In this document: piece after piece, positions 36,699-56,158 of the stretch
Position numbering within the stretch: position 1 is the stretch's first letter
Layout of the letters: every line of letters begins with the position of its first letter
Source: a virus
Taxonomy: Duplodnaviria > Caudoviricetes
Direction: 5' to 3' (one strand)
DNA: 64,000 nt
IMG/VR virus record: IMGVR_UViG_3300029305_001134
Coordinates: 1-64,000 of that record
Notes under the pieces: model-generated
Told to the model about the DNA's origin: nothing
Database searches by the model: none
The model's input: the letters and a program-made list of their open reading frames with translations, nothing else
Position numbers and translations under genes: made by a program

Positions 36699-36791
36699 TA
36701 TTTTTCTATTTGAACGAAGTGAAAACAGGTGAACTTTAGTTGAATTCGCGACCTATACATACCCTATTATGAGATAAAAACCAAAAAGGAG

Positions 36792-37010: not shown

Positions 37011-37082
37011 GACGAGTCCTTAACAAGGGCTCTTCATTTTCTCTCGCGACCGAAACATTTCTTTTATGAGGAGGTGATATGA

Positions 37083-37334
37083 ATGGTATGGTATAAATTA
37101 AAACAGGACTTTTCTAGAAAAGAAGCGAAACTAATTTTAAAGTATATGCAAGAAATTATTGACGAGTACGGCTATGTAACTCTCGCCGATTTTTATGATC
37201 TCGTAGATGTTAGAAGAGTTGTCTACACGGATAATAAAAAACGTTGGCGTTCGTTAAATGGGGCTAGAGTATCGTTGTTTAAAGGTAAATATGGGTATAG
37301 AATAAAATTACCGGCTTTTGAGGAATTGTCATGA
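37083..37334 (+). CDS. hypothetical protein, paralog of 52079 and 53394
   Basis: IIDEYGYVTLADFYDL motif. Confidence 0.8.
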   Translation: MVWYKLKQDFSRKEAKLILKYMQEIIDEYGYVTLADFYDLVDVRRVVYTDNKKRWRSLNGARVSLFKGKYGYRIKLPAFEELS

Positions 37335-37459
37335 CGTAAATCAATATCATATTGCACTAAAACAATAAGGGCTTAGGAGAAATCTTAGGCTCTTCTTTTT
37401 CTTTTCGCGCTTCCTACACTTCCTTTTATGGGAAAACATTTCGAAAGGGGACAATCAAA

Positions 37460-37780
37460 ATGGCTAGATTTAATGCGAAAGAAGAAACATGGTTGAAAGT
37501 AGAAGTCTTAGGAAAAGAAGGTTTATTTATAGATTTACGAATCGATAGAAAGACTGTTCCAGAAGGCTATCATATGTACGAGGTAAGACACTCTGATGAT
37601 GATTGGGGTGAACCTGTAGAGATAGGCGAATGGATTATGGTAAATTTCTTCGGCACGTTATTGATGAAAGAACCATTCGAATTAGAGAAATCTACTGCGG
37701 TCAATAATGCTTATTTGTGGTTAGAGAATCCAGAAGATTTTGGGTATCTTGGAGAAACTGTAGAATTTGGAGAGAGTTAA
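37460..37780 (+). CDS. LPD28-like domain protein
   Basis: LRIDRKTVPEGYHMYEVRHSDD..P..I...VNFFGTLL pattern. Confidence 0.7.
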   Translation: MARFNAKEETWLKVEVLGKEGLFIDLRIDRKTVPEGYHMYEVRHSDDDWGEPVEIGEWIMVNFFGTLLMKEPFELEKSTAVNNAYLWLENPEDFGYLGETVEFGES

Positions 37781-37851
37781 ACATGCTCTCTTCTTTTCGC
37801 GTAAATTACTGATCCTCTTATAGAAAAACCAAAATAAAAGGAGGAAATATT

Positions 37852-38079
37852 ATGTTTGAAAATAAAATTATCAAAGGAGAGTATGCGAGTAGATATATCG
37901 CAAGCTGGATTCGAGTAGGTGGACAACTCAGATATGGTAAGGATGAAGATGATTTTAACGAATGGTTATTATCATTAGGTCTTACCGAAGATGAGGCGTA
38001 CTACATTACGAATTTAGCACGATGTGGTAAACTCGAAATGCAGACACACGCACAGATGTTTTTAAAGAATAGACGTTAA
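37852..38079 (+). CDS. hypothetical protein (cassette)
   Basis: RBS AGGAGG; 75 aa. Confidence 0.75.
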   Translation: MFENKIIKGEYASRYIASWIRVGGQLRYGKDEDDFNEWLLSLGLTEDEAYYITNLARCGKLEMQTHAQMFLKNRR

Positions 38080-38184
38080 TAGAATTCAAAATGGTTTGCG
38101 AGGGAGGTCTACAAAGGCTTCTCTTTTCTTTTTCGCTAAATAAACAATCTATATTATAGAAAAAACAATCAAGGAGGAACGATT

Positions 38185-38346
38185 ATGAAAGTAGTAGTTG
38201 ACAATTTTAGTTATAAGGGTAAATACTATGATAAATTTGAGTGTGAATTACCAGTATCGGATTTAAATAGTATTAGCAGTAAAGAATTATCGGCTATGTT
38301 TACCGAACAAATCGATATTTTTGAAGGAAGAAAGGAGTCTCACTAA
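38185..38346 (+). CDS. 53-aa hypothetical protein (not in the ORF track)
   Basis: MKVVVDNFSYKGKYY...; RBS AAGGAGG; motif at 38132. Confidence 0.7.
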   Translation: MKVVVDNFSYKGKYYDKFECELPVSDLNSISSKELSAMFTEQIDIFEGRKESH

Positions 38347-38464
38347 TGGGGCTTCTTTTATTTTTCTGCTTGAATGAAACGAGAACAGACGAATTGTACG
38401 GATGAGCTATTTCGCGCCTCTTACACGTCCTCTTATGAAGACAAATAGCGAAAGGATGATTGCT

Positions 38465-38689
38465 ATGTGTAAAGTGTATGAATTCCCACAACAAACTGAG
38501 CTTCCAAAAGAAGAGGCGGAATTACTCGAAATTTTAGGCGAGGCGTATGTGAAAGCATTATACAACGCATTAGTCAAAATGGTGGGTGGTGGAGCTTCTC
38601 GTGATGAAATGGAAGAGGTTAATGGGCTAGTACATCGAGCATTTTTGAAAGGTATGAACAAAGCGCTAGAGGAATATGAGAAGTCCTGA
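38465..38689 (+). CDS. hypothetical protein (cassette)
   Basis: MCKVYEFPQ...; RBS AAAGGA; motif at 38411. Confidence 0.7.
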   Translation: MCKVYEFPQQTELPKEEAELLEILGEAYVKALYNALVKMVGGGASRDEMEEVNGLVHRAFLKGMNKALEEYEKS

Positions 38690-38748
38690 ACAAGGGCTTT
38701 TCTTTTTTCGCTAAATAAACACTTCGTTTTATGAGGAGGTGATTTGGA

Positions 38749-38928
38749 ATGATACAAACTGATTTCGTAAAACTCAATAACAAAGACGAAAGATTCAGAT
38801 TTTCAACAAAACTGGTATGCGTTATAAAACCGATTATTCGAGTAGTATTAACACCGATATTCTTGTTGATTAGATTATATTGTTGGGTTTGGGATTACGA
38901 TTATTACGAGATATTTTTCAAACGCTAA
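38749..38928 (+). CDS. 59-aa hydrophobic protein (not in the ORF track)
   Basis: MIQTDFVKL...; RBS GAGGAGGTG. Confidence 0.65.
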   Translation: MIQTDFVKLNNKDERFRFSTKLVCVIKPIIRVVLTPIFLLIRLYCWVWDYDYYEIFFKR

Positions 38929-38982
38929 AAACAATAGAACTGGGCTCATAACGAGTCCTTTTCTTTTTCTCCCCCAACCCAC

Positions 38983-39130
38983 TGGACTTTTTACCTTAAA
39001 CAACCGTGTGCTGTCGAGTGAGCACCCTGATGATAAAGTCATTTCTCCGATTATATTTACTGTTGGACTTTTGACCTTAAACAACCGAGGGCTTCTCTGT
39101 ACGCACTCTGTTCATAAAGTCGTTTCTCCA
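38983..39130. repeat. two tandem 56-bp att-like sites (81-bp period)
   Basis: GACTTT-N44-AAAGTC at 38985-39040 and 39066-39121; shared ACCTTAAACAACCG; divergent centres; just 3' of the recombinase. Confidence 0.75.
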
Positions 39131-39171
39131 ACATAAGAAAAACCCCGCCGTAGCAAGGTTTCTCAGGGTTG

Positions 39172-41022
39172 TTATATTTTCAGATGCATCACGATTTCCA
39201 TGTCATCTTTGTCTGTTTTACGTCTTGTGAGCTTAGTTGTCTTCGAATATATGATTCTGTTTATGATTGATTTCAATGACTCATTCTTTTGTGGTATACT
39301 CATATTGTCGTATTCATTTAAGCAGTCTTCCAATTTGGGGATTGCTTTTTTATATCTAATTAACTTTTCTTCCTCTTCGGTATTTTCGAATTTGGCCAGT
39401 TTACGTTCAATCGAATCAATTTCTTTTTCGATGTCGTTCTTCAACTCGATATAATCATCGTATGATATTTCTTCACGATTTCGAGTACGTAATAAATTCT
39501 TCCGTTCAGTTTTTAATCCAGTCAATTTCTTCTCTAATTTCAAAATGGTTTTGTGCGTATCGTCTCTTTCTTTAATAATTTCCTCTTCATAGTTATCTAC
39601 ATAATATTTAAAATCTTTTAATTCTTCTTTTAGCTGCCTTAATACTTCTTTCTCTAATTTCGGAAGCACGCAAGACACCATATCGCAGTTTTGGTTACTA
39701 CACATGAACGTATCTGCTCCAGGTGGTTTCTCCTCATATGTTAGTAATTGCTTATCGAATTCATCAGTCTCGATATCTAGGAAGAATTTTAACTCGAACC
39801 ATTTTTCGCTGAATAAATCCGTGTAATGTAGCTTCTCAGGATCAGGTCTAAACCAATCATTTATCTTACTACGAGATACTCCGAGAAAATCTGCTATCTG
39901 TTGACTGGTAACACCCTTCTTAGCTCTAGCTTCTCGAATTAATTGGTTGATAGCCACTTTATTAACTTTATATTTTCGTACCCGTTTAATTTCTTTCTTT
40001 CTACGATTCTGTACCCGAACGAGTGAGTAACCGCATTTCTTACAGAACACCAAACCAGCCAAAGGATTCTTTAGTTCTCGATTCCAGCCAGTTTTGTCAG
40101 GCTTATTTTTCCGCAGTCTCTCCTGTGCCATATCCCATTTCTCTTTACTGATAATACCTTCTTGTCTACCTCGAACTAACATATATTCTTCTGGGCTTGG
40201 TCTAAACTTGTGTAACTCTCCGTTTATAAGTTTCTTTACTACTGGTCTTTTACCCCAAGCGAGATCGCCGTAATAAACTTCATTCTTTAAAATATGTCGG
40301 ACCATTTCGTCATTCCATAGTTCAGCTATACGAGGTTTTAATTCGTGCTTGTTCAAATAATTCGCTGTCTCCAGAGTAGATAAACCATCATCAACAAAAG
40401 CTGAGAACAGAGCTTCAACGATTGGTGCTTCATTCTGGTCTTTAATTAACATGAATCCTCTATCGAGTGGCTTACGAGCATAACCAAAAGGAGGAGTGCT
40501 ACCAATCCATTTACCTTCACGTAATGATAATTGTCTACCACGACCTAATATTTCTTTTGTATATTCCAAATATTTATTACCTTGTAGTAATTGAGCTTCG
40601 AATATTTCTTTATCAAATTTGTTATTCAAATCATATGCTTTGGTTATTGTGGCGATTATCGTATTCGTATATTTCAGAATTTGTACAACACGACCACAGT
40701 CTAACATTTCACCACGAGATATACGCTGAGGTTCAATCACGAGTAATACAGAACCTTCTTCCTTCTCTAATCGATGAAACACCTTCTTAATCTCAACACG
40801 ATCGTCTATTGTCTCGCCAGAAACAACTTCACGATAGATATTTTCTTCAGGTATTTTCTCTCCGAATGTTTGTATAGCATATTCTTGAAGAATCGTTTCA
40901 TGTCGGGATAATACTTCTTCAACACTTTCTTTACCTTCCGCACGAGATTTCCTCAGATAGATAATTACTCGTCGTACACTTATTTTTCCTAATTCGTATG
41001 GTGTTATGATATTTAAGCTCAT
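39172..41022 (-). CDS. large serine recombinase (integrase) with an XRE-type HTH inserted in the zinc ribbon
   Basis: YLRKSR catalytic motif, EVVSGE, RISRG, PPFGY, CKKCG; RBS AAAGGAG supports the MSLNII start at 41022. Confidence 0.92.
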   Translation of the reverse strand: MSLNIITPYELGKISVRRVIIYLRKSRAEGKESVEEVLSRHETILQEYAIQTFGEKIPEENIYREVVSGETIDDRVEIKKVFHRLEKEEGSVLLVIEPQRISRGEMLDCGRVVQILKYTNTIIATITKAYDLNNKFDKEIFEAQLLQGNKYLEYTKEILGRGRQLSLREGKWIGSTPPFGYARKPLDRGFMLIKDQNEAPIVEALFSAFVDDGLSTLETANYLNKHELKPRIAELWNDEMVRHILKNEVYYGDLAWGKRPVVKKLINGELHKFRPSPEEYMLVRGRQEGIISKEKWDMAQERLRKNKPDKTGWNRELKNPLAGLVFCKKCGYSLVRVQNRRKKEIKRVRKYKVNKVAINQLIREARAKKGVTSQQIADFLGVSRSKINDWFRPDPEKLHYTDLFSEKWFELKFFLDIETDEFDKQLLTYEEKPPGADTFMCSNQNCDMVSCVLPKLEKEVLRQLKEELKDFKYYVDNYEEEIIKERDDTHKTILKLEKKLTGLKTERKNLLRTRNREEISYDDYIELKNDIEKEIDSIERKLAKFENTEEEEKLIRYKKAIPKLEDCLNEYDNMSIPQKNESLKSIINRIIYSKTTKLTRRKTDKDDMEIVMHLKI

Positions 41023-41130
41023 GGAAAAATTTACTCCTTTTCTTAGATGACTTTTTATATTACGCTTCAAATAGTAAACTTTCATAATTTGCTGAATACT
41101 TACATATCTTTCATCGAGGTGGTTAAAAAC

Positions 41131-41283
41131 ATGAAAATTACAGTTGTCAGAAACGAACCAACGAAGGAAGTCCTTCAAAATATTTATGACGTAATGAACA
41201 GAAATATTAAAAATCCAAAATGTTTTTATACGTCAGAAGAAACTAAAAAATTAAAGAAGGACAAATCCAACGTGTGGCTGTAA
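41131..41283 (+). CDS. 50-aa protein divergent from the integrase
   Basis: RBS GAGGTGG; MKITVVRNEPTKE... Confidence 0.6.
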   Translation: MKITVVRNEPTKEVLQNIYDVMNRNIKNPKCFYTSEETKKLKKDKSNVWL

Positions 41284-41293
41284 TGGCTGCGCG

Positions 41294-41677
41294 TTATTTT
41301 TTAATTTGCTCTCTGACTGATAAGTATAATTTCATGATATTTTCGTATAGGTCTTGTTTCTCTTCTAATGATACTTTGTCATTTTCAAATATTAGTCTAG
41401 CTCGTTCTAATAAATCTACAGTTTCTATTTCATCGGTTTTACATCCAAGTGTCTCGATTGAAACGTTAAAATAATCTGCGAGTATCTTTATTTGATGGAT
41501 ATTTAAGTTCCTTTTACCTGTCTCTAGATTTGATACTTGTCCTCTCGATAACGGTCTTCCTGTTGCTCTATTTCCTAAAACTATTCCTAACTCATCTTGT
41601 GTTATATTTCTCATTTTTCTTAATTGTCTCACCCGACCACCTATTTCTTTTGTATCGAGCGTCTTTTGAATTTGCAT
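41294..41677 (-). CDS. XRE-family HTH repressor without a peptidase domain
   Basis: IGGRVRQLRKMRNITQDELG...VSNLETG...LADYFNVS. Confidence 0.88.
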   Translation of the reverse strand: MQIQKTLDTKEIGGRVRQLRKMRNITQDELGIVLGNRATGRPLSRGQVSNLETGKRNLNIHQIKILADYFNVSIETLGCKTDEIETVDLLERARLIFENDKVSLEEKQDLYENIMKLYLSVREQIKK

Positions 41678-41773
41678 CGGATATCACTTTCCTTTCTTAT
41701 AATAAAGTACATGTTTCATTCTACACAAAAATATTCAAATAGCAAACTTTTTAGTTCGAAATTTAAAAACTTA

Positions 41774-41833
41774 TTTACAAATTCTAAAAATTATATTAAG
41801 ATAGCAATGTAAACACGTATGGAACATACGTTC
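41774..41833 (+). promoter_or_regulatory. sigmaA-like promoter plus Firmicute LexA (Cheo) box
   Basis: TTTACA(41774)-17 bp-TAAGAT(41797); GAAC-ATAC-GTTC at 41822-41833. Confidence 0.7.
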
Positions 41834-41861
41834 TAATCTTAATCGATAGGAGTGAACCGCT

Positions 41862-42038
41862 GTGGATGGTGTAGCGAAGGTTATTGACGAATTGGGATTG
41901 ATGATTTTACAGAAAGATATTGAGCTTGAATTAAAACAAAATGAGATCGATAAATTAAAAAGAAAGATAGAAATGATTGAACAATACTTAGACATGTACG
42001 AGGATAATTGCAACTACGATTTCGCATTAAAACGATAA
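41862..42038 (+). CDS. 58-aa coiled-coil protein under the LexA box, candidate antirepressor
   Basis: RBS AGGAG, GTG start; MDGVAKVIDELGLMILQKDIELELKQNEIDKLKRKIE... Confidence 0.65.
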   Translation: MDGVAKVIDELGLMILQKDIELELKQNEIDKLKRKIEMIEQYLDMYEDNCNYDFALKR

Positions 42039-42132
42039 TACATATACATACTTAATCTAATCATTCCCTTGCCCCGGTACTTATGGTTAGATACTTTTTT
42101 AAACATAGTGCGTCAAATAGTAAACTAATGAG

Positions 42133-42357
42133 GTGAAAAGTTTGCATAGAAGAAAGAAATTAGTGTTTTGGAGAATAGAACGACGAATGAGACAGAGGGA
42201 TTTGTGTGAGAGGTTAGGAATCACTACAGCTCATTACTCGAATATCGAACGAGGTATATCAGATCCGTCTTATGTTTTATTAATGAAATTTCGAGAGTTA
42301 TACGATGGTGATGTTTTAGATTTGTTTGAAAAGGAGAATTCAAAATGGCAACAGTAA
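42133..42357 (+). CDS. Cro-like XRE HTH regulator
   Basis: RQRDLCERLGITTAHYSNIERG. Confidence 0.82.
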   Translation: MKSLHRRKKLVFWRIERRMRQRDLCERLGITTAHYSNIERGISDPSYVLLMKFRELYDGDVLDLFEKENSKWQQ

Positions 42358-42764
42358 TACGTGCGGAAATTTCAGAAAAGAATAAATATTGGATAGATAA
42401 ACATAGACATTACGAGTTAAAACATTTCTGCCTACAATATCCCGAATGGAAAAGAGCTTATATGGAATTTGATAATCCAAGTATCCCTTTATCAATGATG
42501 GAAAGAGTTCCTACAAGTAATCTACCAGGCGATCCTACTGCTAAACGAGCGATGATGAAATCATATTATGGTGAACGAATTAAATTACTCGAACAGATTG
42601 CTTTAGAAGCTGATAACTGTTTACATAATTATATTTTAAAAGCTGTCACCGAAGGATTGTCTTATACATACTTAAACACTCGATTAGGGATTCCTTGTAG
42701 TAGAGATTTATATTACGATCGCTATAGGAAATTCTTCTGGTTACTTAGTAAGGCGCGAGGATAA
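42345..42764 (+). CDS. putative transcriptional regulator (ArpU/RinA-like)
   Basis: GDPTAKRA...C-terminal HTH-like GIPCSRDLYYDRYRKFFWLL. Confidence 0.55.
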   Translation: MATVIRAEISEKNKYWIDKHRHYELKHFCLQYPEWKRAYMEFDNPSIPLSMMERVPTSNLPGDPTAKRAMMKSYYGERIKLLEQIALEADNCLHNYILKAVTEGLSYTYLNTRLGIPCSRDLYYDRYRKFFWLLSKARG

Positions 42765-42804
42765 CATCTCCTTTTATGAAAATATATTTAAAGGAGGAAT
42801 ACTT

Positions 42805-43056
42805 ATGTTAGTATTAGGATTTTTGGGATATTTAGTAATTGGATACGCGAGCTTATTCGTGGTTGTGATGATCCACATAATTAAAGCTGAAAAAGCAGGT
42901 TATGATTGTCTAAATTGGTGGGGTAAACATACCGCCAATATTGGAAATCAAATCGATGACAACTTTATCATTGGATTGATTATCTGGCCGGTACGATTAA
43001 TGCAATTCATTATTGATATTCCGGAATATTATGAACAGTATGGCTTTAAATATTAA
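42805..43056 (+). CDS. small membrane protein
   Basis: two hydrophobic stretches; RBS AAGGAGG. Confidence 0.7.
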   Translation: MLVLGFLGYLVIGYASLFVVVMIHIIKAEKAGYDCLNWWGKHTANIGNQIDDNFIIGLIIWPVRLMQFIIDIPEYYEQYGFKY

Positions 43057-43159
43057 GGAGGACTCACATCGAGTCTTCTTTTTTTGTTATTCGCGAAATT
43101 TACAACATCTATTATGGAAAATACATTACAAATTTATATATTATAGGAGGAAATATTTT

Positions 43160-43438
43160 ATGAAAAAAGTATTAATTATGATTGGGGGAGTATGTGGTGT
43201 GATTGGCAATTTTATCGCAACTGAAAACAAATATTACGATGAAGTAGCAAAAGCTGAAGAAGCTGTGGCTAGCTTTAACGAAGTAGAAGTAATCGGTGCG
43301 TATGAAAAGGCTAGTCTCGAAACAGACTGGAATAATGGTACATACGGAATCACAGTACGATTATATACAGCAGATGGAACTATGATCTCATCTGTAGTGT
43401 ATGAAGATGTGAATGATTTTATCGAGAGGGAGTTCTAG
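43160..43438 (+). CDS. secreted or membrane-anchored small protein
   Basis: MKKVLIMIGGVCG signal-like N-terminus; RBS AGGAGG. Confidence 0.7.
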   Translation: MKKVLIMIGGVCGVIGNFIATENKYYDEVAKAEEAVASFNEVEVIGAYEKASLETDWNNGTYGITVRLYTADGTMISSVVYEDVNDFIEREF

Positions 43439-43520
43439 GAACTCTTCTCTTTTTTTTTCGCTATTTTTACACAGTGTATTATAGAAAATACAAAATCATT
43501 AATTGAAAGGAGATATAACT

Positions 43521-43598
43521 ATGATGAATTTAGACAAATTATTCGACGAGCTTATGCAAGAATTCGAGGAAATGATTGAGCATTTTAAAAACAGTTGA
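43521..43598 (+). CDS. 25-aa acidic microprotein
   Basis: MMNLDKLFDELMQEFEEMIEHFKNS; RBS AAAGGAG; own motif and terminator. Confidence 0.6.
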   Translation: MMNLDKLFDELMQEFEEMIEHFKNS

Positions 43599-43701
43599 GA
43601 GGCTTCGGCTTCTCTTTTTCTTTAATTGTACATTCGCGCGAAAAACATACCCCTTTATGAAAAACTATTTAATTAATGAATTCAAAATGGAGGTATGAAT
43701 T

Positions 43702-43950
43702 ATGTTACGCAAAATGATTGAACAGATTATTGAGAAGAGACAAGCAGTTAGAAAGGCATTGGTGAAGGAAACTTTTGGGGATATGCATACATTAGTAGGT
43801 ATGTCGGACGAGGAGTTTAAATTCATGAAAGCGGTTCTGGAATTAGAAAACATGACTGATGATCTGTTGGGAACAGTAGGTGTAGAAATCGAGAAACTTC
43901 AAAATGATGTTGATAAATTAAATAAGGAAATGTTAGAGAGGGCTAAATAA
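43702..43950 (+). CDS. coiled-coil hypothetical protein
   Basis: RBS GGAGGT; cassette structure. Confidence 0.75.
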   Translation: MLRKMIEQIIEKRQAVRKALVKETFGDMHTLVGMSDEEFKFMKAVLELENMTDDLLGTVGVEIEKLQNDVDKLNKEMLERAK

Positions 43951-44026
43951 GCCTTTCTCTTTTCTTTTTCGCGAATTAAACACAGTATATTATGAGAAAA
44001 ATTTATATATTTAGGAGGAAATCAAA

Positions 44027-44158
44027 ATGAAAAAAGTTGGAGTATTTATCAAAAAGCACATGAAGAAATTTATCGGAGGCGCTATTGGGTTAGTATTAAC
44101 AATTGTATCATTAGGTTTATACCAAGTGTATAAAAGTAAACAAGAAGAGGAGGCTTAG
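44027..44158 (+). CDS. 43-aa single-TM microprotein
   Basis: MKKVGVFIKKHMKKFIGGAIGLVLTIVSLGLY...; RBS AGGAGG. Confidence 0.65.
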   Translation: MKKVGVFIKKHMKKFIGGAIGLVLTIVSLGLYQVYKSKQEEEA

Positions 44159-44298
44159 GCTTCTTCTTTTTATTTTCGAACATATTTCTAATCTAGATTA
44201 AAACCACCTCTAACCTAGAATAGAAAAACCGTACGTAGGTGACTGAGATCAATGCTACATTCGTAGTGTGATAAATATTTTTAAGAAAGGAGAATGCT

Positions 44299-44517
44299 AT
44301 GGAAATTATTATCGCTATTATTTTTGGAGGTGTGCTTGGATTCGTATTAGGTGTATTAATCGCTCGTAAAACCAAACCAGACGGGATATTACGAATCGAT
44401 CATACCAACCCAGAGAAAGATACCTATCGATTTGAAATTGACGAGATTGATAAGTTATCGAATAAAAGATACATACGATTGAAAGTAGATAACAACGCCA
44501 ATCTTTCGCAAGATTAA
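44299..44517 (+). CDS. single-TM protein
   Basis: N-terminal TM; GILRID motif. Confidence 0.72.
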   Translation: MEIIIAIIFGGVLGFVLGVLIARKTKPDGILRIDHTNPEKDTYRFEIDEIDKLSNKRYIRLKVDNNANLSQD

Positions 44518-44560
44518 CATGGTCTTTTATGAAGTATTATATTTAAAGGAGGGCTTTATT

Positions 44561-44977
44561 ATGCCAGAAAAGAAATCTTTAAAACAGTTGATGGAAGAGG
44601 TAGCAGCTGAAAAATTGCAATATGTGTTAGAACATGAACAGGGGGATGACGATGCAGAAGAAGCATTCGATCAGGCCATTACAGCTGTGAAAGTTTATAA
44701 TGACATGGTTAAGATTGACGATGCTCATGATGAAGAACTTAAACGTCAGGAGATTGAGAAAGACAAACAAGAGGCGGATAAGAAATTCAAAATGAGTGAA
44801 TCGACAAAAGAAAAGATCATGAAAGGAATTGAACTCGGAGCAGTTGTAATCGTTACACCTGTAATCGGGTATTTCTCGAACAAGAATCTCGCTAAGTTCT
44901 TATGCAAAGCTGAGCAGTTTGAGACCTTTACAACAACTGCCGGAAGATCTTTGGGCAAGATGTTTAAGTTCAAATAA
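44561..44977 (+). CDS. hypothetical protein with a C-terminal hydrophobic segment
   Basis: RBS AAGGAGG before MPEKKS. Confidence 0.72.
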   Translation: MPEKKSLKQLMEEVAAEKLQYVLEHEQGDDDAEEAFDQAITAVKVYNDMVKIDDAHDEELKRQEIEKDKQEADKKFKMSESTKEKIMKGIELGAVVIVTPVIGYFSNKNLAKFLCKAEQFETFTTTAGRSLGKMFKFK

Positions 44978-45036
44978 TGAGTAATACTCGTAGGGAGGGC
45001 TATGGAAACATAGTCTTCTCTTTTTCTTTTATCTCA

Positions 45037-45191
45037 TACTATTCGTAGTAGTAACAGGTCATTTTATTTTTTTTTATTTAATATTTATATGTAATAACAT
45101 TAACTTTTGTTAATAAATATAAACTATTGTTAATGTAAGTATATAAGTAATTAAAAGAAATATTTTTTTTTACGAATAGTAGTAGCAGGTC
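45037..45191. other. very AT-rich tract bracketed by inverted and direct repeats, candidate replication origin
   Basis: about 10 G/C in 110 bp (45061-45170); IR TACTATTCGTA/TACGAATAGTA; DR TAGTAGTARCAGGTC. Confidence 0.45.
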
Positions 45192-45246
45192 TCACGAATT
45201 TTACACGCTCCTTTATGAGAATTAATTTCAAAGGAGGATTTATATT

Positions 45247-45426
45247 ATGAGTAAAAGAACAAGAATTGATGCGAGTAGAGAGGCTAGACTTTGGTTGAAA
45301 GAAGTTTTATTACCAGCGGGAGCGTTGATAGTAACAGCTATTTCAATTCCAGAGGTTAGGAATACTGGCGAGAAGTTACTTACGAAGAGTAAAGACTTTA
45401 TTGAATCGAAATTCAAAAGAAACTAA
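45247..45426 (+). CDS. 59-aa microprotein
   Basis: MSKRTRIDASREARLW...; RBS AAGGAGG. Confidence 0.68.
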   Translation: MSKRTRIDASREARLWLKEVLLPAGALIVTAISIPEVRNTGEKLLTKSKDFIESKFKRN

Positions 45427-45496
45427 GAGATTAGGGGCTTAACGGCTCCTTTTCTTTTTCTACGAATGATACGCGAAATATACAACGAATATTATA

Positions 45497-45772
45497 GAAA
45501 GAAAGCATATCGAGAGAGGGAGACCGGCTCTACATTCAGTAGTGAAGAGTACGAACTATACAAACCGAGGCTCGAATCGAAAGATTGACAGTAATGGTCC
45601 AGAGGACGAATGGTCGTAGTGAATATCGGAGGCTGATATGCTATATATACTGATAACAATGTCGGAGATTTTGATATTATAAGTATCGACGGCAGGCAAA
45701 TGGTGCGCTGACTTGGGAGCAGTCTTTATGATCGATCCCTGGGAAAATTGGAACATTGTGTTTTATTTTTTC
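45497..45772 (+). ncRNA. candidate structured ncRNA (~270 nt)
   Basis: follows the motif at 45470; no RBS or ORF; AGCATATC/GATATGCT stem; AATC-GAAA-GATT tetraloop. Confidence 0.55.
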
Positions 45773-45821
45773 TTTTTCGCATAATATACAGCCTCTCTTA
45801 TAGAAAAGATTATAGGAGGAT

Positions 45822-46031
45822 ATGATTATGGGTATCAGAGGATTGAAATGGATTAAATGTAAGAACGGACAGAAACCAAATCGTGAGGTCGAACACAAAA
45901 TACAAGACGAATCTCGCGTGAGGCAGATGGTTGAAACTGAATTGTATCTATTGAGTTGGGAGGTACGTAAAATCATGGATGACATGAGATTGGAAAGAAC
46001 AGTATTAAGCAAGTTACATAAGGCTAGCTAA
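45822..46031 (+). CDS. hypothetical protein (cassette)
   Basis: RBS AGGAG. Confidence 0.68.
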   Translation: MIMGIRGLKWIKCKNGQKPNREVEHKIQDESRVRQMVETELYLLSWEVRKIMDDMRLERTVLSKLHKAS

Positions 46032-46129
46032 TGCTGGTCTTTTTTTTTTCTTCATATTCGTCCACTCGCGTTAATTACATCGAATATTATAGAAACATAT
46101 TAAATAAAATTACAATGGAGGATAAATAT

Positions 46130-46345
46130 ATGTTTAACGGTAAAGAGAGAAAGACTTTGTTGAAAGAGCTTGAAAGCAAGATTGAGGTATTACATTCGAA
46201 CGTGATACTTATGGAACACGATTTTATGGCACTCAAAGATGGAGGTAGTGAATTATTTATTAAAGACTTTGAGTATCGTAAGGAAATGATTCGTAAGAAT
46301 ATGATCGACACGAATGTATTACTCACAAGACTGAAGGAACTGTAA
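46130..46345 (+). CDS. hypothetical coiled-coil protein
   Basis: RBS GGAGG before MFNGKERK. Confidence 0.7.
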   Translation: MFNGKERKTLLKELESKIEVLHSNVILMEHDFMALKDGGSELFIKDFEYRKEMIRKNMIDTNVLLTRLKEL

Positions 46346-46469
46346 CAGGTTCTTTCTCTTTTTTTTCTTTTCGAACATAGTGAGAACAGGTGAAACTTTA
46401 GTTGAACGTTCGCGTAAAAATCATATCCTCTAATGAAACTAAAAGTTTAAGAAAATGGAGGATTGGAAT

Positions 46470-46685
46470 ATGAGCGAAACTAATAGAAATGGACAGATTA
46501 TTGACTTCTTGAACAAATGGGATGAAATGCTTAAAGCGGCTAATGAAATCGAAGGATTTAAATGGGATTTCAAAGTCCGCATTACGAGTAATAATTCCCT
46601 GATTGAAGATAGAGTCAGAACTATCAATGGAATTAATGAATCGTTTAGTAGGAATCATATGACTTGGACGAGTAGTAACAACTAA
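46470..46685 (+). CDS. hypothetical protein (cassette)
   Basis: RBS GGAGG before MSETN. Confidence 0.65.
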   Translation: MSETNRNGQIIDFLNKWDEMLKAANEIEGFKWDFKVRITSNNSLIEDRVRTINGINESFSRNHMTWTSSNN

Positions 46686-46735
46686 AGAGGGCTTCGGCTT
46701 CTCTTTTATTTTATTTTGTAAGGAGTTGACACAAA

Positions 46736-47095
46736 TTGCGTTATCACTATGAAAAACCAGATCTATATCATTCTATGTATGGTGAAAATTACGAATGCGA
46801 TCATCCAGTTTACGATAGATGTACTTTATTCAAAATAGGTAAGAAAGGTTTAGCCGTAATTCAACAACGTTACGACCCAGAAACTAAAAATACATACTGG
46901 AACGAAATAGACCCCTGGCTTACTGACTCGATATATTTACATAAGAAATTTAAAGAATATTTTGATAAACGCTCAGGCGAATGCACGAATGGAATATATC
47001 CGACAGTTACGATTCGTCAATTAATGTGGAGCTTACGAATGAAACCAATATCTAAAGAACGTTGGGAGACTTGTTTCGATAGACGAGAAATTTGA
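46736..47095 (+). CDS. hypothetical protein
   Basis: TTG start after AAGGAG; 119 aa. Confidence 0.72.
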   Translation: MRYHYEKPDLYHSMYGENYECDHPVYDRCTLFKIGKKGLAVIQQRYDPETKNTYWNEIDPWLTDSIYLHKKFKEYFDKRSGECTNGIYPTVTIRQLMWSLRMKPISKERWETCFDRREI

Positions 47096-47146
47096 CGCGA
47101 TGAAAACATACTCCTTTATGAAATATTAAATTAGGAGGTAACTTAT

Positions 47147-47365
47147 ATGAAGAAAGCATTATTATTTGTAACAGGAGCAGGTATTGGAGCAGTGACAGGA
47201 TTTGTAGGAGCTGTAGTATGCTTACTCATTGGAGTTGCAGGAGAGGATAAAGTACTCTATGAAGACGACAAAATGAGAATTAGAGCAGCAACTGATAGTA
47301 CTGAAGCTGAAACAGGTTTTGCCGTGGTTACATATAAAAAGCAAACAACAGAAACCAACGAATAA
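47147..47365 (+). CDS. single-TM protein
   Basis: Gly-rich TM GAGIGAVTGFVG. Confidence 0.72.
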   Translation: MKKALLFVTGAGIGAVTGFVGAVVCLLIGVAGEDKVLYEDDKMRIRAATDSTEAETGFAVVTYKKQTTETNE

Positions 47366-47514
47366 TATTCGGGGATTGAGGATTCATTACGAGTCCTCTT
47401 TCTTTCTGCTCGAATCCCATGAGAACAGGTGAAACTTTAGTTGAGCATTCGCGAAAAATACAGGACCTATTATAGAAAATAACGGAAAATAAAATATGAA
47501 AGGAGAAAATTATC

Positions 47515-47601
47515 ATGATGGAATTATTGAAAGTATTTGTTAACGTATGGTTTTTAGGCGGAGACATGTATAACAATAATGATTATGGTGTTAGATTCTA
47601 A
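47515..47601 (+). CDS. 28-aa microprotein
   Basis: MMELLKVFVNVWFLGGDMYNNNDYGVRF; RBS AAAGGAG. Confidence 0.55.
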   Translation: MMELLKVFVNVWFLGGDMYNNNDYGVRF

Positions 47602-47723
47602 TAAGAATTTGGCGTTATTAATCGAAAAGGCGAGTCTTAACTAAGGCTCTTCCTTTTACTTTCCATCATGATTCGCGATATTTACACGCTCCTTTATGAA
47701 ATAATATTTAAGGAGGATAAAAT

Positions 47724-47873
47724 ATGATTATGTTTATGATTTTATTATTAATAGCAGGAGTTATACTGGCAATGTTTAGTGTGGTGGCAATCTTACTAAT
47801 CGAGCCAATTGTATGTTTCCTGATTATCTATGGAATCTACAGATTGATCAAATTTATTAGAAAGAAACATTAA
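47724..47873 (+). CDS. 49-aa very hydrophobic membrane microprotein
   Basis: RBS AAGGAGG; basic C-terminus. Confidence 0.65.
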   Translation: MIMFMILLLIAGVILAMFSVVAILLIEPIVCFLIIYGIYRLIKFIRKKH

Positions 47874-47990
47874 CGAGAGGGGCTTAGGCTTCTCTTTTCT
47901 ATTTAAACGAAGTGAGAACAGGTGAAACTTTAGTTGAACATTCGCGACTAATACAGCCTCTTTTGTGAAGAGAAAAGGAGGTAATTAGAC

Positions 47991-48086
47991 ATGAAAATCA
48001 TAATGAATATACTAGTGACGATATTGGCGTTAGGGTTATTAGGATTGGCGTTGATTATCGCGTGTATATGCGTATTAGCATTTTAA
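47991..48086 (+). CDS. 31-aa TM microprotein
   Basis: RBS AAGGAGGT. Confidence 0.6.
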   Translation: MKIIMNILVTILALGLLGLALIIACICVLAF

Positions 48087-48214
48087 GATTATCGAATGGA
48101 CAAATCGGATTGGGAGGATTGAATTATGATCCTCTTAGTCTTCATATTCGCGAAGAATACATACCCTTTAATGAAAGATAAATCAAAATAAAACTAATTT
48201 AGGAGGAATTTATT

Positions 48215-48409
48215 ATGTTGGAAATGATTGTATTAGGATTAACAATCGTAATTGGAATGGTGTTAGCTAGTTTAGCAATGTTGGTGATAACATTCAAAAT
48301 TATGCTTAGCAAGAAATGGATGTTATGGTTTGTTAAGAAATACATGAAAATGATTAATGAAATCACCGAAGAAGTGACAGAAGATTTATTAAAAGTTGAG
48401 GCTGAGTAA
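48215..48409 (+). CDS. single-TM protein
   Basis: RBS AGGAGG. Confidence 0.7.
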   Translation: MLEMIVLGLTIVIGMVLASLAMLVITFKIMLSKKWMLWFVKKYMKMINEITEEVTEDLLKVEAE

Positions 48410-48468
48410 AACCAGTCTCTTTCTTTTTTCATCAAAACGGATTCGCGAAATTTACAACGGATATTATG

Positions 48469-48618
48469 AAAGAAAACTAATATTCGAAAGGGCAGTGAAG
48501 TTGGAGGGCCGAAGATTGTCGGTACCGCATCGGGCACGTCGCTGAGGTGAAAACCTGACAAATGAGCGTGAGCAAAATAACGGCGTCCTTCGAGTAGAAC
48601 AATCCTAGAGTTTTCTTT
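48469..48618 (+). ncRNA. candidate structured ncRNA (~150 nt)
   Basis: terminal stem AAAGAAAACT/AGTTTTCTTT; TATTCGAAAGGGC/GTCCTTCGAGTA; AGGT-GAAA-ACCT; no ORF. Confidence 0.65.
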
Positions 48619-48678
48619 TACTTTCGCGAAATTTACAAGCTCCATTATAGGAAATACTATAAAAGGAGGATAAAGGAT

Positions 48679-48762
48679 ATGGCATTTATGATTATACCAG
48701 CATTGGTTATGACATTATGTGTATACGAATCCGTAATGGGTTGTATTACAAATTTAAGATAG
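48679..48762 (+). CDS. 27-aa hydrophobic microprotein
   Basis: RBS AGGAGG; own motif and terminator. Confidence 0.55.
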   Translation: MAFMIIPALVMTLCVYESVMGCITNLR

Positions 48763-48827
48763 GGACAAATTATAAGTCTCTATTTTTCTTTTAATTCCAT
48801 ATTCGCGAAATTTACAAGTCCTTTTAT

Positions 48828-48922
48828 GAGAGAAAGATAAGGTAACTATTACCTAGAATGATCGCATTTTAAGAGCTGAGAAAAATGGGAATTGGCGGTA
48901 GCTTCATTCGTATCATTCTCTT
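48828..48922 (+). ncRNA. candidate four-way-junction RNA (~95 nt)
   Basis: closing stem GAGAGAAAGATA/TATCATTCTCTT plus three internal hairpins. Confidence 0.55.
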
Positions 48923-48968
48923 TTTGTTCTTCCTACTTCACAAATCCAACCGAAAGGTGTTGTCACAA

Positions 48969-49754
48969 ATGAATGGCCTAGTTAATAGCGTCAAAATATT
49001 TGGTAAACGTAATGCATCAACAATTCTTACAGTGGTAGGAGGCGTTGGCGTGTTAATTACTTCTATCATGGCAGTGAAAGCGACACCTAAAGCTATGACG
49101 ATATTAGAACAAGCGAAGGATGAGAAAGGTGAAGAGTTAACTAAATTTGAGAAATTCAAAATGGCGGGTCCTAGTTATATTCCAGCTACAATCGTAGGTA
49201 TTGGGACGGTTACTTGTATATTCGGAGCTAACGTACTAAATAAACGTCAACAAGCAGCTCTAGTTAGTGCGTATACATTAGTAGATAGCTCCTACAAACA
49301 ATATCGCCATAAATTAGTTGAATTATACGGTAAAGATACACATAATGAAATCGTGGACGCCATCGCCGTAGAAAAAGCTGAAGAAGTTGGGATTTATGCT
49401 GAAAGTCTATGTGCGAATACTTGTCTAACTGACGAAGAATCTTGCGGAGAACCAGTTTTGTTCTATGACGAATTCGGTGGAAGATATTTTGAGTCGACTA
49501 TCGAACAAGTTATCGCGGCTGAGTATCATACAAATCGCAATTTTACACTACGTGGGTACGCAGTATTAAACGAACTATACGAATTTCTCGGTTTAGAACC
49601 TACTGATTATGGTAATACAGTTGGCTGGGCTGTAGATAGCGACCTATATTGGATCGATTTCAATCATAGGAAGACTGTACTTGAAGATGGACTCGAATGT
49701 TATATTCTAGAGTCTTACTGGTCTCCAAGTGCTGACTTTTTAGAATATTATTAA
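48969..49754 (+). CDS. DUF6353-like protein, paralog 1
   Basis: ILTVVGGVGV..AVKATPKA...LNELYEFLGL..VGW; RBS AAAGGTG before MNGLV. Confidence 0.75.
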   Translation: MNGLVNSVKIFGKRNASTILTVVGGVGVLITSIMAVKATPKAMTILEQAKDEKGEELTKFEKFKMAGPSYIPATIVGIGTVTCIFGANVLNKRQQAALVSAYTLVDSSYKQYRHKLVELYGKDTHNEIVDAIAVEKAEEVGIYAESLCANTCLTDEESCGEPVLFYDEFGGRYFESTIEQVIAAEYHTNRNFTLRGYAVLNELYEFLGLEPTDYGNTVGWAVDSDLYWIDFNHRKTVLEDGLECYILESYWSPSADFLEYY

Positions 49755-49853
49755 TTACCGCACACAGGTGACAAAAATCGGTGATAAATTGTTAATGAAT
49801 TCGCGGTGAAAACAAGCCGTATTATGAGAAAACTAATTTAGGAGGAATTTATA

Positions 49854-50024
49854 ATGAAAAACTTTAAATTTAATGGCGGATTGTTTGGTTTTATTATGAT
49901 TATTGGAGCTGCATTAGGCGCGGCTGCACAAGAAATGACCATGCAATCGATCGAGAAAAAACAAAAAGAACAGGATGAACGTATCGCTAAATTGGAAGGT
50001 AAAAACGTAGGGGAGTCTCAGTAA
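49854..50024 (+). CDS. 56-aa TM plus coiled-coil microprotein
   Basis: RBS AGGAGG. Confidence 0.65.
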   Translation: MKNFKFNGGLFGFIMIIGAALGAAAQEMTMQSIEKKQKEQDERIAKLEGKNVGESQ

Positions 50025-50080
50025 TGAGGCTCTTTTATTTATTTTTATAAGGTTACACACATTAAGGAGGAGAATTAAAA

Positions 50081-50866
50081 ATGAATATGTCAAACGTAAC
50101 TAAAGTATTAAAAACAATCGGAACTGGATTAAATAAACACAAGCCAGCGATTCTTACAGGCATGGGTATTGCTGCGGGTGTAACATCCACAGTATTAGCA
50201 GTTAAAGCCACACCAGATGCTATGGAATCTATCAAAATGGCAGAAGAAGAAAAAGGCGAAAAATTGACTAAAATGGAAGTTGTAAAAGTAACTTGGAAAC
50301 ATTATATCCCAGCGATTGCTACAGGGGTTACAGCGGGTGTATGTGTTGTTGGTGCTAATGCTGTTCATAATAAACGTAGTGCCGCTTTAGCAACTGCATG
50401 TCAGATTTCTGCGACAGCCCTTAACGAATACAAAGAGAAAACTATCGAGACTGTAGGTGAAGAAGCCGAGAAACAGATTCGTGAGAAAATTGTTAAGGAT
50501 AGAAAAGATAAAGTTGAGAAAAAAACAGCGAGTGAGAATCATACTGTATTCGTTTCGGAAGATGGCGAATATACAATTCGTGAACCTTATTCCAATCAGA
50601 CTTTTAGATCATCCGAAGAAAAAGTAATAAAAATCATGAATAATCTCAACGGACGAATGATCGATGGAGCTGAAATGTATATGTCCGTAAATGAATTACT
50701 CGATGAATTCGGTTTGGACCATTACGAGTTGGGTGATGATATCGGATGGACCGTAAATGATCGAATTGATTTAATGATTGATGTAGAGAAATCAAAAACA
50801 GGCAAACCACGAGCTGTTATCAGATATTTGAACCCAGCAAAACATGATTTCAGAAAATTACACTAA
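50081..50866 (+). CDS. DUF6353-like protein, paralog 2
   Basis: ILTGMGIAAG..AVKATPDA...VNELLDEFGL..IGW. Confidence 0.75.
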   Translation: MNMSNVTKVLKTIGTGLNKHKPAILTGMGIAAGVTSTVLAVKATPDAMESIKMAEEEKGEKLTKMEVVKVTWKHYIPAIATGVTAGVCVVGANAVHNKRSAALATACQISATALNEYKEKTIETVGEEAEKQIREKIVKDRKDKVEKKTASENHTVFVSEDGEYTIREPYSNQTFRSSEEKVIKIMNNLNGRMIDGAEMYMSVNELLDEFGLDHYELGDDIGWTVNDRIDLMIDVEKSKTGKPRAVIRYLNPAKHDFRKLH

Positions 50867-50937
50867 TTCGCGAAAAATACAAGAACTATTATGAGATATT
50901 ATTAATCTAATTTTTATACAAAGAAAGGAATATAATT

Positions 50938-51219
50938 ATGAAAAAAAATCAGGAAGTTGAAACAGTTAATGTAGAAACAGTTAATGTAGAAACAGCAGAG
51001 GTTGATAAAGCTGAAGTTGATAACATTGAACAGGAACCTAAGAAAGTTGGATTCTGGAAATCAAAAACAGGAAAAAACATTATTAGAGTTACTGTAGGTC
51101 TTATCGCATTCGGTTTGGGAGCTACTGCCGCTTCATACGTGAACAGTAAGAAGAATGGAACAGCTACTGACGAAACAGAAGATGATTATTCTGAAGACGT
51201 GGAAATTACAGAATTTTAA
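50938..51219 (+). CDS. acidic single-TM protein
   Basis: central TM; ETVNV repeat. Confidence 0.72.
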   Translation: MKKNQEVETVNVETVNVETAEVDKAEVDNIEQEPKKVGFWKSKTGKNIIRVTVGLIAFGLGATAASYVNSKKNGTATDETEDDYSEDVEITEF

Positions 51220-55201: not shown

Positions 55202-56158
55202 ATGACAAAAGTAGAATTAATGAATAAAGCAAGTAGAGCTATGCATAAAGTAGCTTTCAAATTTAAAAAACACAGCCCTGAAATTATGATTGTGACAGGT
55301 GTTGTTGGTGTTGTAACAAGTGCGGTAATGGCTTGTAAAGCTACTACTAAACTTAGTGAAATTATGGAAGAAGCAAATAATCAGATTGACGAAATCAAAT
55401 ACGCGATGGAACATCCTGAAACCGTGCCAGCAACTTCCAAAGGAGAATATACAGAAGAAGCTGGTAAGCATGATTTGACTATCACTTATGCGAAAACAGG
55501 ATTTGAATTGTTTAAACTCTACGCTCCAGCTGTAGGTGTAGGCATTGCTTCTATTACTATGATTCTTGCAGGTCACAATATTACTCGTAAGCGTTTGGCG
55601 GTTTCTACAGCAGCTTATACAGCACTCGATACAGCATTCAAAGATTATCGTGGACGTTTGATCGAACGATTCGGTAAAGATTTGGACAAAGAATTACGAT
55701 ACAACTTAAAAACAAAAGAAGTAGAAGAAGTAATCGTGAATGAAGATGGCTCTGAGACTATCGTTAAGAAAACAGTCGAGGAAGTTGACAATCCATTGGC
55801 ATTGTACAGCGATTATGCTAAATTCTTTGACGCTAGCTGCCCAGATTTCGAAAAAGACCCAGAACTTAACTTTATGTTCTTACGTGCTCAGGAACGTTAT
55901 GCGAATGAACAGTTAAAACGTAAAGGTTATATGTTTTTGAATGATGTATACGAATTAGTTGGTATTCCACGTACAAAAGCAGGGCAGTTCGTTGGTTGGA
56001 TTTACGACGATAAAAATCCAGAACATGACGGTGATAATTTCATCGATTTCGGTATTACAGACAGAACTAAAGAAGGTAGTCGTTTGTTTGTTAACGGTCG
56101 CGAAAGTGTTATTCTGTTAGACTTCAACGTTGACGGACCTATCGTTGATTTAATCTGA
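55202..56158 (+). CDS. DUF6353-like protein, paralog 3 (possible UGA read-through to 56281)
   Basis: SPEIMIVTGVVG..ACKATTK...FLNDVYELVG..VGW...LLDFNVDG. Confidence 0.8.
   Translation: MTKVELMNKASRAMHKVAFKFKKHSPEIMIVTGVVGVVTSAVMACKATTKLSEIMEEANNQIDEIKYAMEHPETVPATSKGEYTEEAGKHDLTITYAKTGFELFKLYAPAVGVGIASITMILAGHNITRKRLAVSTAAYTALDTAFKDYRGRLIERFGKDLDKELRYNLKTKEVEEVIVNEDGSETIVKKTVEEVDNPLALYSDYAKFFDASCPDFEKDPELNFMFLRAQERYANEQLKRKGYMFLNDVYELVGIPRTKAGQFVGWIYDDKNPEHDGDNFIDFGITDRTKEGSRLFVNGRESVILLDFNVDGPIVDLI

What the first reader, a model, noticed from the sequence alone, without database searches (positions are those of the whole stretch)
48469..48618. Promoter cassette encoding a compact GC-rich structured RNA instead of a protein
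Seen: directly after the motif at 48442 there is a 10-bp terminal stem (AAAGAAAACT/AGTTTTCTTT), a second stem (TATTCGAAAGGGC/GTCCTTCGAGTA), a GNRA hairpin (AGGT-GAAA-ACCT) and a GC-rich core, with no RBS or ORF. I do not recognise a known family. Inference: a phage small RNA or ribozyme expressed with the early microproteins, possibly an anti-defence RNA or protein decoy.
Basis: partly seen in the sequence, partly recalled or inferred. Interest (0 to 1): 0.75.

Follow-up and report, generated by a model that had tools for sequence, protein, structure and literature searches.

The report
New knotted RNA gene in gut phages
The flagged 150-base stretch is a real gene for a tightly folded, pseudoknotted RNA that makes no protein, matches no catalogued RNA family, and is carried as an optional cassette by a small group of uncultured gut phages; what it binds or does is still unknown.

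Summary
Observation confirmed. Folding energy alone is weak evidence (z = -2.0). The evidence is comparative. Eleven distinct homologues (129-267 nt) turned up in IMG/VR and metagenome contigs, all behind the same promoter motif. 54 of the 118 core positions are invariant. In the proposed helices 98.5% of cells pair (about 40% when partners are slid), and 10 pairs show compensatory changes.

No Rfam 15 family matches, even at E = 10. There is no conserved ORF and no reverse transcriptase. The RNA is single copy. It is absent from close sister phages, one of which lacks exactly this cassette region, and no phage protein co-occurs with it.

The phages are temperate and encode a YonO-like single-subunit RNA polymerase. 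The best reading is a stand-alone, trans-acting accessory RNA whose invariant four-way junction binds a host or core-phage factor. Function is inferred, not shown. The ribozyme and anti-defence ideas remain untested. The scan noted the same family in another genome (e1-5839342, e1-5839349).

The parts
48442..48467 (+). Cassette promoter motif: palindrome TTCGCGAA, then TTTACA, 5 variable nt, TATTAT. TTTACA lies only 5 nt from TATTAT, which is not sigma-70 -35/-10 spacing.
   Evidence: The same motif precedes all 11 homologues.
48468..48478 (+). P1 5' arm (GAAAGAAAACU). It starts at the purine right after TATTAT, the probable +1.
   Evidence: In L030 and L035 the complementarity runs to the first G.
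48481..48493 (+). P2 5' strand (UAUUCGAA, bulged A, GGGC).
   Evidence: helix 1 is 98% paired, with 4 pairs changed on both sides.
48494..48502 (+). Invariant AGUGAAGUU. It is predicted to pair with AAAUAUCG-type sequence at 48576-48582 (P2c), but it never varies, so that pairing is untested.
48503..48528 (+). P3. It has a closing pair G48503-C48528, which covaries G-C / U-A / C-G across homologues. Then come a purine-rich internal loop, the stem CCGA/UCGG, and the loop at 48513-48518.
   Evidence: helix 2: 3 of 5 pairs compensatory.
48514..48518 (+). Pseudoknot 5' strand (GAUUG, in the P3 loop).
48529..48539 (+). Invariant AUCGGG plus a minimal P4 position. Relatives insert a GAAA-capped hairpin of 25 to about 60 nt here.
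48540..48568 (+). P5 (CGCU/AGCG; GGCU/AGCC in relatives, a compensatory change) enclosing the GNRA hairpin AGGU-GAAA-ACCU at 48545-48556.
   Evidence: helix 6.
48569..48584 (+). Conserved junction strand (UGAG..AAAUA.CGGC) leading back into P2.
   Evidence: invariant columns.
48585..48596 (+). P2 3' strand (GUCCUUCGAGUA).
48600..48604 (+). Pseudoknot 3' strand (CAAUC), between P2 and P1.
   Evidence: cognate helices are 5-8 bp in 9 of 10 sequences, against a non-cognate mean of 2.9 bp.
48609..48619 (+). P1 3' arm and U-run (AGUUUUCUUUU), the terminator-like end of the transcript.
48623..48638 (+). Promoter motif of the next cassette (27-aa peptide). It shows that the RNA is a self-contained unit.

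Best explanation
Window 48468-48619 is a stand-alone gene for a stable non-coding RNA of about 150 nt. It belongs to an uncatalogued family confined, as far as these searches reach, to a small clade of temperate, YonO-like-RNA-polymerase-encoding phages from gut metagenomes.

SHOWN: it is non-coding, single copy, and always directly behind the phage's repeated cassette promoter motif. Its fold is conserved. A long helix P2 leads into a tight four-way junction (P2c, P3, P4, P5) that holds most of the 54 invariant nucleotides. The P3 loop reaches back to pair with the strand between P2 and P1, forming a pseudoknot. Peripheral hairpins vary in length and are mostly capped by GNRA loops. The cassette is optional among close relatives, and no phage protein is inherited with it.

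INFERRED: transcription starts at the purine after TATTAT and stops at the U-run, with P1 joining the two ends. The RNA acts in trans. Its invariant junction is a specific binding surface for a host factor or a core phage factor, either a protein or a small ligand, which would make it a decoy or aptamer-type accessory RNA used in host takeover or counter-defence.
For: Homologues and shared promoter. Conservation: 54 invariant core columns. Helices: 98.5% of cells paired against 37-45% when partners are slid, 10 pairs with double changes, 0 of 500 shuffles as good. Pseudoknot: nine different Watson-Crick helices, cognate mean 5.7 bp against 2.9 bp non-cognate. The P3 closing pair appears as G-C, U-A and C-G. 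No Rfam family matches the window, L002 or L189 copies at E<=10. No conserved ORF; L035 has none of 15 aa or more. Single copy in G000. Stand-alone unit: the next promoter follows within 5 nt here and in 7 of 10 loci. Accessory: absent from G005 (96% complete), G006, G007, MT835495 and FP_oengus; in G005 the cassette region is missing between flanks 88-90% identical to G004. No protein family is specific to RNA-bearing genomes. Phage context: serine recombinase and HTH repressor upstream on the minus strand; YonO-like RNAP in all relatives.
Against: The transcript ends and its stability are therefore inferred. No partner was identified. P1 is not separable from base-composition effects. In L030, L179 and L186 the RNA is followed by an RBS and ORF with no new promoter, which would also fit a cis-acting leader. 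L180 replaces the pseudoknot loop with a GAGA tetraloop, and L187 lacks P1, so neither element is strictly required. There are only 11 distinct sequences, several of them closely related. The promoter's polymerase is unknown.
Confidence: 0.55

Rival explanations
1. Cis-acting leader, either a riboswitch or a protein-dependent attenuator. The junction would bind a ligand and so stabilise the pseudoknot and P1. Because P1 abuts the U-run, it would work as an integrated terminator and set read-through into downstream genes such as the DUF6353 membrane proteins.
For: In L030, L179 and L186 an RBS and ORF follow with no intervening promoter. DUF6353 genes lie directly downstream in the window, L030 and L189. 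The many invariant junction nucleotides and the loop-to-J2/1 pseudoknot are aptamer-like.
Against: In 7 of 10 loci a full promoter starts within a few nt of the U-run, which makes control by read-through redundant. The downstream genes differ between loci. No alternative antiterminator pairing was seen. No known riboswitch model matches.
Confidence: 0.17
2. A ribozyme, self-cleaving or otherwise, whose catalytic core is the invariant junction.
For: It has a compact pseudoknotted fold, about 54 invariant nucleotides concentrated at a junction, and variable GNRA-capped peripheral hairpins. These are features typical of small ribozymes.
Against: No match to the hammerhead, twister, twister-sister, hatchet, pistol, HDV, hairpin or glmS models of Rfam. 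Each cassette already has its own promoter and U-run, so there is no obvious need for processing. No candidate cleavage site was identified.
Confidence: 0.08
3. Self-assembling RNA. The P3-loop/tail pairing would form between molecules, head to tail, to give dimers or rings, as in phi29 pRNA or the ornate ROOL and GOLLD RNAs.
For: Phage-borne RNAs that multimerise are known (10.1101/2024.12.08.627333).
Against: Helix lengths fit an intramolecular fold: P3 plus the pseudoknot is about 17-19 stacked layers against about 20 for P2 (my own counting). L180 lacks the pairing altogether. The RNA is optional, and the phage has a standard terminase and portal, so an essential packaging role like that of pRNA is unlikely.
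Confidence: 0.08
4. Not a functional RNA: only an elaborate terminator or spacer, a chance fold, or an unrecognised small protein gene.
For: The single-sequence z-score is only -2.0. P1 could be a side effect of a purine-rich start and a U-rich terminator tail.
Against: Invariant blocks flanked by compensatory helices and a nine-version pseudoknot cannot be explained by chance or by a terminator. There is no conserved reading frame.
Confidence: 0.03

Closest known systems
Orphan structured RNAs of phages and prophages (GOLLD, ROOL, manA, and the roughly 10,000 candidate structured RNAs of Fremin et al. 2023, PMC10690425)
   Same: Phage-encoded, stand-alone, complex fold supported by covariation, function unknown, often optional.
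   Different: No sequence or structure match to any Rfam model. It is much smaller (129-267 nt) than GOLLD or ROOL and is not next to tRNAs. Whether it is one of the unnamed Fremin candidates could not be checked, because no supplement is held.
THF-I riboswitch (Rfam RF01831; topology recalled from my own knowledge)
   Same: The topology is the same: a hairpin loop folds back beside P2 and pairs with the 3' strand between P2 and P1 (L3-J2/1 pseudoknot), above a multi-helix junction.
   Different: No model match and different conserved nucleotides. The pseudoknot here is hypervariable in sequence. The RNA is mostly a self-contained transcript rather than a leader of folate genes.
phi29 prohead RNA (pRNA, Rfam RF00044)
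   Same: A phage RNA of about 120-170 nt with its own promoter, paired 5' and 3' ends, a multi-helix junction, and a freely covarying loop-loop or loop-strand pairing.
   Different: No model match. The host phages are 55-100 kb and have a standard TerL and portal. The RNA is absent from sister phages, so it cannot be an essential packaging component.
Retron msr-msd ncRNA
   Same: A terminal inverted repeat (like a1/a2) closes a structured RNA of about 150 nt.
   Different: There is no reverse transcriptase anywhere in the 100-kb genome, and no protein gene co-occurs with the RNA.
PeSL-type mobile regulatory cassettes of T4-like phages (Arbiol et al. 2010, recalled from my own knowledge)
   Same: Repeated promoter and terminator units flank small accessory genes, and whole cassettes are swapped between relatives.
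   Different: This concerns the cassette frame only. Here the cargo is a structured RNA rather than a small ORF, and the promoter motif is unrelated.

Membership tests
Any Rfam 15 family (4227 models) | Covariance-model score at or above the gathering threshold, or at least a consistent weak hit across homologues | tested here: not met
   Searches gave only unrelated chance hits (E 0.2-9), different for each homologue.
Riboswitch / cis-regulatory leader | Sits in the 5' UTR of the regulated gene, with no promoter between aptamer and gene | tested here: inconclusive
   Met in L030, L179 and L186. Not met in the window or in 6 other loci, where a promoter follows at once.
Riboswitch / cis-regulatory leader | Ligand-dependent switch between alternative structures | not testable with these tools
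   Needs in-line probing or transcription-termination assays.
Self-cleaving ribozymes (hammerhead, twister, twister-sister, hatchet, pistol, HDV-like, hairpin, glmS) | Conserved catalytic core matching the family model | tested here: not met
   CUGAGG...GAAA in the window is not conserved in the homologues.
Self-cleaving ribozymes (new class) | Site-specific self-scission in vitro | not testable with these tools
   Bench assay required.
Retron ncRNA | Adjacent reverse transcriptase gene | tested here: not met
   PF00078 is absent from G000, while the controls ring.
phi29-type pRNA | Match to RF00044, and universal presence in the phage lineage as part of the packaging motor | tested here: not met
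   No Rfam hit. Absent from near-complete sister genomes. The phage has a TerL with a nuclease domain.
tRNA / tmRNA / tRNA-like | Cloverleaf detected by ARAGORN or the tRNA covariance model | tested here: not met
   the only tRNA is tRNA-Met at 7045-7117.
Conserved structured ncRNA (generic criteria) | Compensatory base changes that maintain helices across homologues, above controls | tested here: met
   (10 pairs, 0 of 500 shuffles as good, slid controls about 40% paired). (pseudoknot).
Conserved structured ncRNA (generic criteria) | Discrete transcript observed | not testable with these tools
Protein-coding microgene | Conserved reading frame with a start codon and RBS | tested here: not met

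The most novel reading that the evidence does not exclude
The invariant four-way junction is a high-affinity aptamer, and the phage floods the cell with this stable RNA to soak up a host immune signal or nucleotide second messenger, or to jam a defence sensor. That would be a natural RNA counterpart of the protein 'sponges' that phages use against CBASS- or Thoeris-type immunity. An alternative novel reading is that it is a new class of small ribozyme.
Probability: 0.1. Interest if true: 0.9.

Novelty: new variant of a known kind. Interest (0 to 1): 0.62.

Why it matters
Complex-folded RNAs with dozens of invariant nucleotides and a long-range pseudoknot are rare. When their function has been solved they have usually turned out to be ribozymes, riboswitch aptamers or specific protein partners. 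This one is small enough (129-267 nt) for direct biochemistry and structure work. It has natural minimal and expanded versions that mark which parts are dispensable. It is also carried as an optional cassette in the accessory region of temperate gut phages, where counter-defence and host-takeover functions tend to sit. It offers an experimentally tractable way to ask whether phages use structured RNAs, and not only small proteins, as accessory weapons. It also adds a marker for a poorly known phage group that has a YonO-like RNA polymerase.

Tried and rejected
1. Rfam at gathering and at E<=10 on three family members: nothing consistent.

2. blastn of the locus against 50,697 GenBank phages: no match.

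3. Exact core-motif scan of 185,579 species genomes: 15 hits, all chance, none matching the profile. So no prophage or host copy was found, and no host was assigned.

4. Weak model hit in L049 (E 0.037): on reading it is coding-like sequence, so I rejected it.

5. The second ORF-free cassette at 45497-45790 as a paralogue: not hit by model R1 and z = -0.7. I left it as a separate item.

6. Link to the phage RNA ligase (75439-76746): the ligase is absent from all other RNA-bearing genomes, so I rejected the link.

7. Co-inherited partner protein: none.

8. Retron reading: no reverse transcriptase.

9. T-box, TPP, FMN, cobalamin, hammerhead and K-turn resemblances seen by eye in the window copy are not conserved in the homologues, so I dropped them.

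11. Literature: no paper contains the invariant 13-14-mers or DUF6353. The supplement of Fremin 2023 is not held.

Full report
**Observation**

The window is part of a 100,079-bp IMG/VR virus record rated complete.
- the motif TTCGCGAAATTTACAA at 48442-48457;
- the perfectly complementary ends, 48469-48478 with 48609-48618;
- the second stem, 48482-48494 with 48585-48596, with one bulged A;
- the AGGU-GAAA-ACCU hairpin at 48545-48556;
- a G+C island of 0.47-0.54 in flanks of 0.26-0.35.

The motif is over-represented: 9 copies with up to 3 mismatches against 1.6 expected. The minimum-free-energy fold reproduces the stems, but the z-score is only -2.0. The opposite strand folds no better than shuffles. 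The single sequence therefore does not settle the matter.

**Homologues**

I fetched related loci through the neighbouring DUF6353 protein. I then scanned IMG/VR, metagenome contigs and species genomes for the two conserved blocks that emerged. Profile searches separated true members from chance hits.

This gave 11 distinct sequences of 129-267 nt, all from IMG/VR viral contigs or metagenome contigs. One contig is labelled human gut. None came from the 185,579 species genomes.

Every member sits directly behind the same promoter motif, begins with a purine-rich GA(G/A)AGAA, and ends in a U-run.

**Structure**

In the core alignment A2, 54 of the window's 118 core positions are invariant. The helices I proposed pair in 98.5% of cells, against 37-45% when partners are slid by 1-3 columns. 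Ten pairs show changes on both sides, and 0 of 500 shuffles reach the observed scores.

- **P2** (8 bp, a bulged A, then 4 bp) covaries at four positions.
- **P3** covaries at three of five pairs. Its closing pair, which joins the nucleotide after GUU to the one before AUCGGG, occurs as G-C, U-A and C-G.
- **P5** changes from GGCU/AGCC to CGCU/AGCG in the window copy.
- **P4** is optional. In the window it is reduced to a few nucleotides. In seven relatives it is a GAAA-capped hairpin, and in L180 it is about 60 nt.
- **P5b**, a second inner hairpin of P5, is likewise present or absent.
- **Predicted only.** RNAalifold also predicts pairing of the invariant UGA-A-GUU with AAU-A-UCG, and of UCG with CGA. 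These never vary, so they are predicted but not tested.
- **Junction.** Taken together the helices form a nearly linker-free four-way junction with one conserved 6-7-nt joining strand.

**Pseudoknot**

The P3 loop is complementary to the strand between the 3' side of P2 and the 3' arm of P1. In the window the pairing is GAUUG (48514-48518) with CAAUC (48600-48604). Nine of ten distinct sequences have a cognate Watson-Crick helix of 5-8 bp, and each has a different sequence. The cognate mean is 5.7 bp against 2.9 bp for non-cognate combinations. L180 instead has a GAGA tetraloop and no such pairing.

By my own count of stacked layers, P3 plus the pseudoknot is about as long as P2. An intramolecular side-by-side fold is therefore plausible. 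That is the topology I recall for the THF-I riboswitch.

**P1**

The terminal stem can form in all members except L187, which has a separate local hairpin before its U-run. Its purine-rich and pyrimidine-rich arms pair almost as well across non-cognate sequences (7.2 vs 6.2 bp). I therefore treat P1 as likely but unproven. In L030 and L035 the complementarity is perfect up to the first G after TATTAT. That fits a transcript starting there.

**What it is not**

- No Rfam 15 model matches the window, L002 or L189 copies, even at E = 10.
- ARAGORN finds only tRNA-Met at 7045.
- No reading frame is conserved, and one member has no ORF of 15 codons.
- There is no reverse transcriptase in the genome.
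- My covariance model R1 finds one copy per genome and nothing else in 346 kb of related loci or in the whole 100-kb genome.

**Genomic and phage context**

The genome encodes TerL, portal and a protease-capsid fusion. A serine recombinase and an HTH repressor lie on the minus strand at 39-41.7 kb. Next comes the plus-strand array of small cassettes that contains the RNA.

The genome also encodes a 1026-aa YonO-like two-barrel RNA polymerase with HTH domains near both ends. All related records carry it. Its nearest cultured relative is in Faecalibacterium phage FP_oengus, at 46% identity. This places the phage in the group described in bioRxiv 10.1101/842583. YonO itself is a DNA-dependent RNAP that transcribes the SPbeta late genes (PMC5467207).

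In the cassette promoter, TTTACA is only 5 nt from TATTAT. This is not a canonical sigma-70 arrangement. Which polymerase uses the promoter is unknown.

**Distribution**

The RNA is absent from near-complete sister records G005 and G006, from G007, from MT835495 and from FP_oengus. G005 matches G004 at 88-90% identity on both sides of the locus, yet it lacks the RNA cassette and about 1 kb after it.

Immediate neighbours differ between loci. No protein family is specific to RNA-bearing genomes. The RNA ligase of this genome is not shared with them.

In 7 of 10 loci the next promoter begins within a few nucleotides of the U-run. In L030, L179 and L186 an RBS and ORF follow directly.

**Interpretation**

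It is shown that this is a conserved, non-coding, pseudoknotted RNA of a new family, carried as an optional self-contained cassette.

It is inferred that the RNA is a discrete stable transcript acting in trans, and that the invariant junction is a binding surface for a host factor or a core phage factor. The accessory distribution, the lack of a co-inherited protein and the location in the variable region after the lysogeny module fit a host-takeover or counter-defence role. None of these shows such a role.

The rivals, in order of likelihood as I judge it, are:
1. a cis-acting leader or riboswitch with P1 as an integrated terminator;
2. a new ribozyme;
3. a self-assembling RNA that uses the loop-tail pairing in trans.

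**Novelty**

I found no description of this family. No paper in the library holds the invariant 13-14-mers. It could be among the 10,006 unnamed viral candidates of Fremin et al. (PMC10690425), which I could not check. First-stage notes of this scan describe what is evidently the same family in another genome (e1-5839342, e1-5839349). I used them only as a pointer.

Noticed in passing
G000 96660-99740 (outside the window; L222:12660-15737): A 1026-aa YonO-like two-barrel RNA polymerase (phrog_4291, E = 0). It has a sigma-70-region-4-like HTH near the N-terminus and a second HTH at the C-terminus. It sits just upstream of the structural genes, as yonO does in SPbeta, and it is present in all 8 related records.
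   Followed up: partly
window 36500-51000, e.g. 48442-48468: In the cassette promoter motif, TTTACA lies only 5 nt from TATTAT, and the start contains the 8-bp palindrome TTCGCGAA. The spacing does not fit sigma-70. The motif could be a promoter for the phage polymerase or could carry an operator for an HTH protein. It is conserved across phages whose polymerases are only 53-68% identical.
   Followed up: partly
window 57957-62704: The DNA polymerase gene is split in two (57957-60725 and 61358-62704; PHROG profile positions 1-927 and 922-1295). An I-HmuI-like HNH/NUMOD endonuclease ORF (60730-61365) lies between the halves. This could be an intron or a free-standing homing endonuclease. Rfam found no group I intron at gathering score.
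   Followed up: partly
window 45497-45790: A second ORF-free cassette behind a promoter copy. It has the same purine-rich 5' end and U-rich 3' end, and a CGAGGCU...AAUC-GAAA-GAUU element like part of P5. Model R1 does not match it, and its fold z-score is -0.7.
   Followed up: partly
G004 vs G005 (L028:8300-10900 against G005:49410-50932): Sister phages differ by a clean loss or replacement of the RNA cassette plus about 1 kb, between flanks 88-90% identical. The repeated promoter copies may act as recombination points for cassette shuffling.
   Followed up: partly
G000 75439-76746 and 72655-73215: An RNA ligase (PF09414, phrog_968) and a radical-SAM / 4Fe-4S protein lie in the late-early region. 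The ligase is unique to this genome among the relatives examined.
   Followed up: partly
window 48885-49754, 50081-50866, 55202-56158: Three paralogous DUF6353 / phrog_2152 membrane-anchored proteins. The family is present in 1-4 copies in every related record. Its function is unknown, and no paper mentions it.
   Followed up: no
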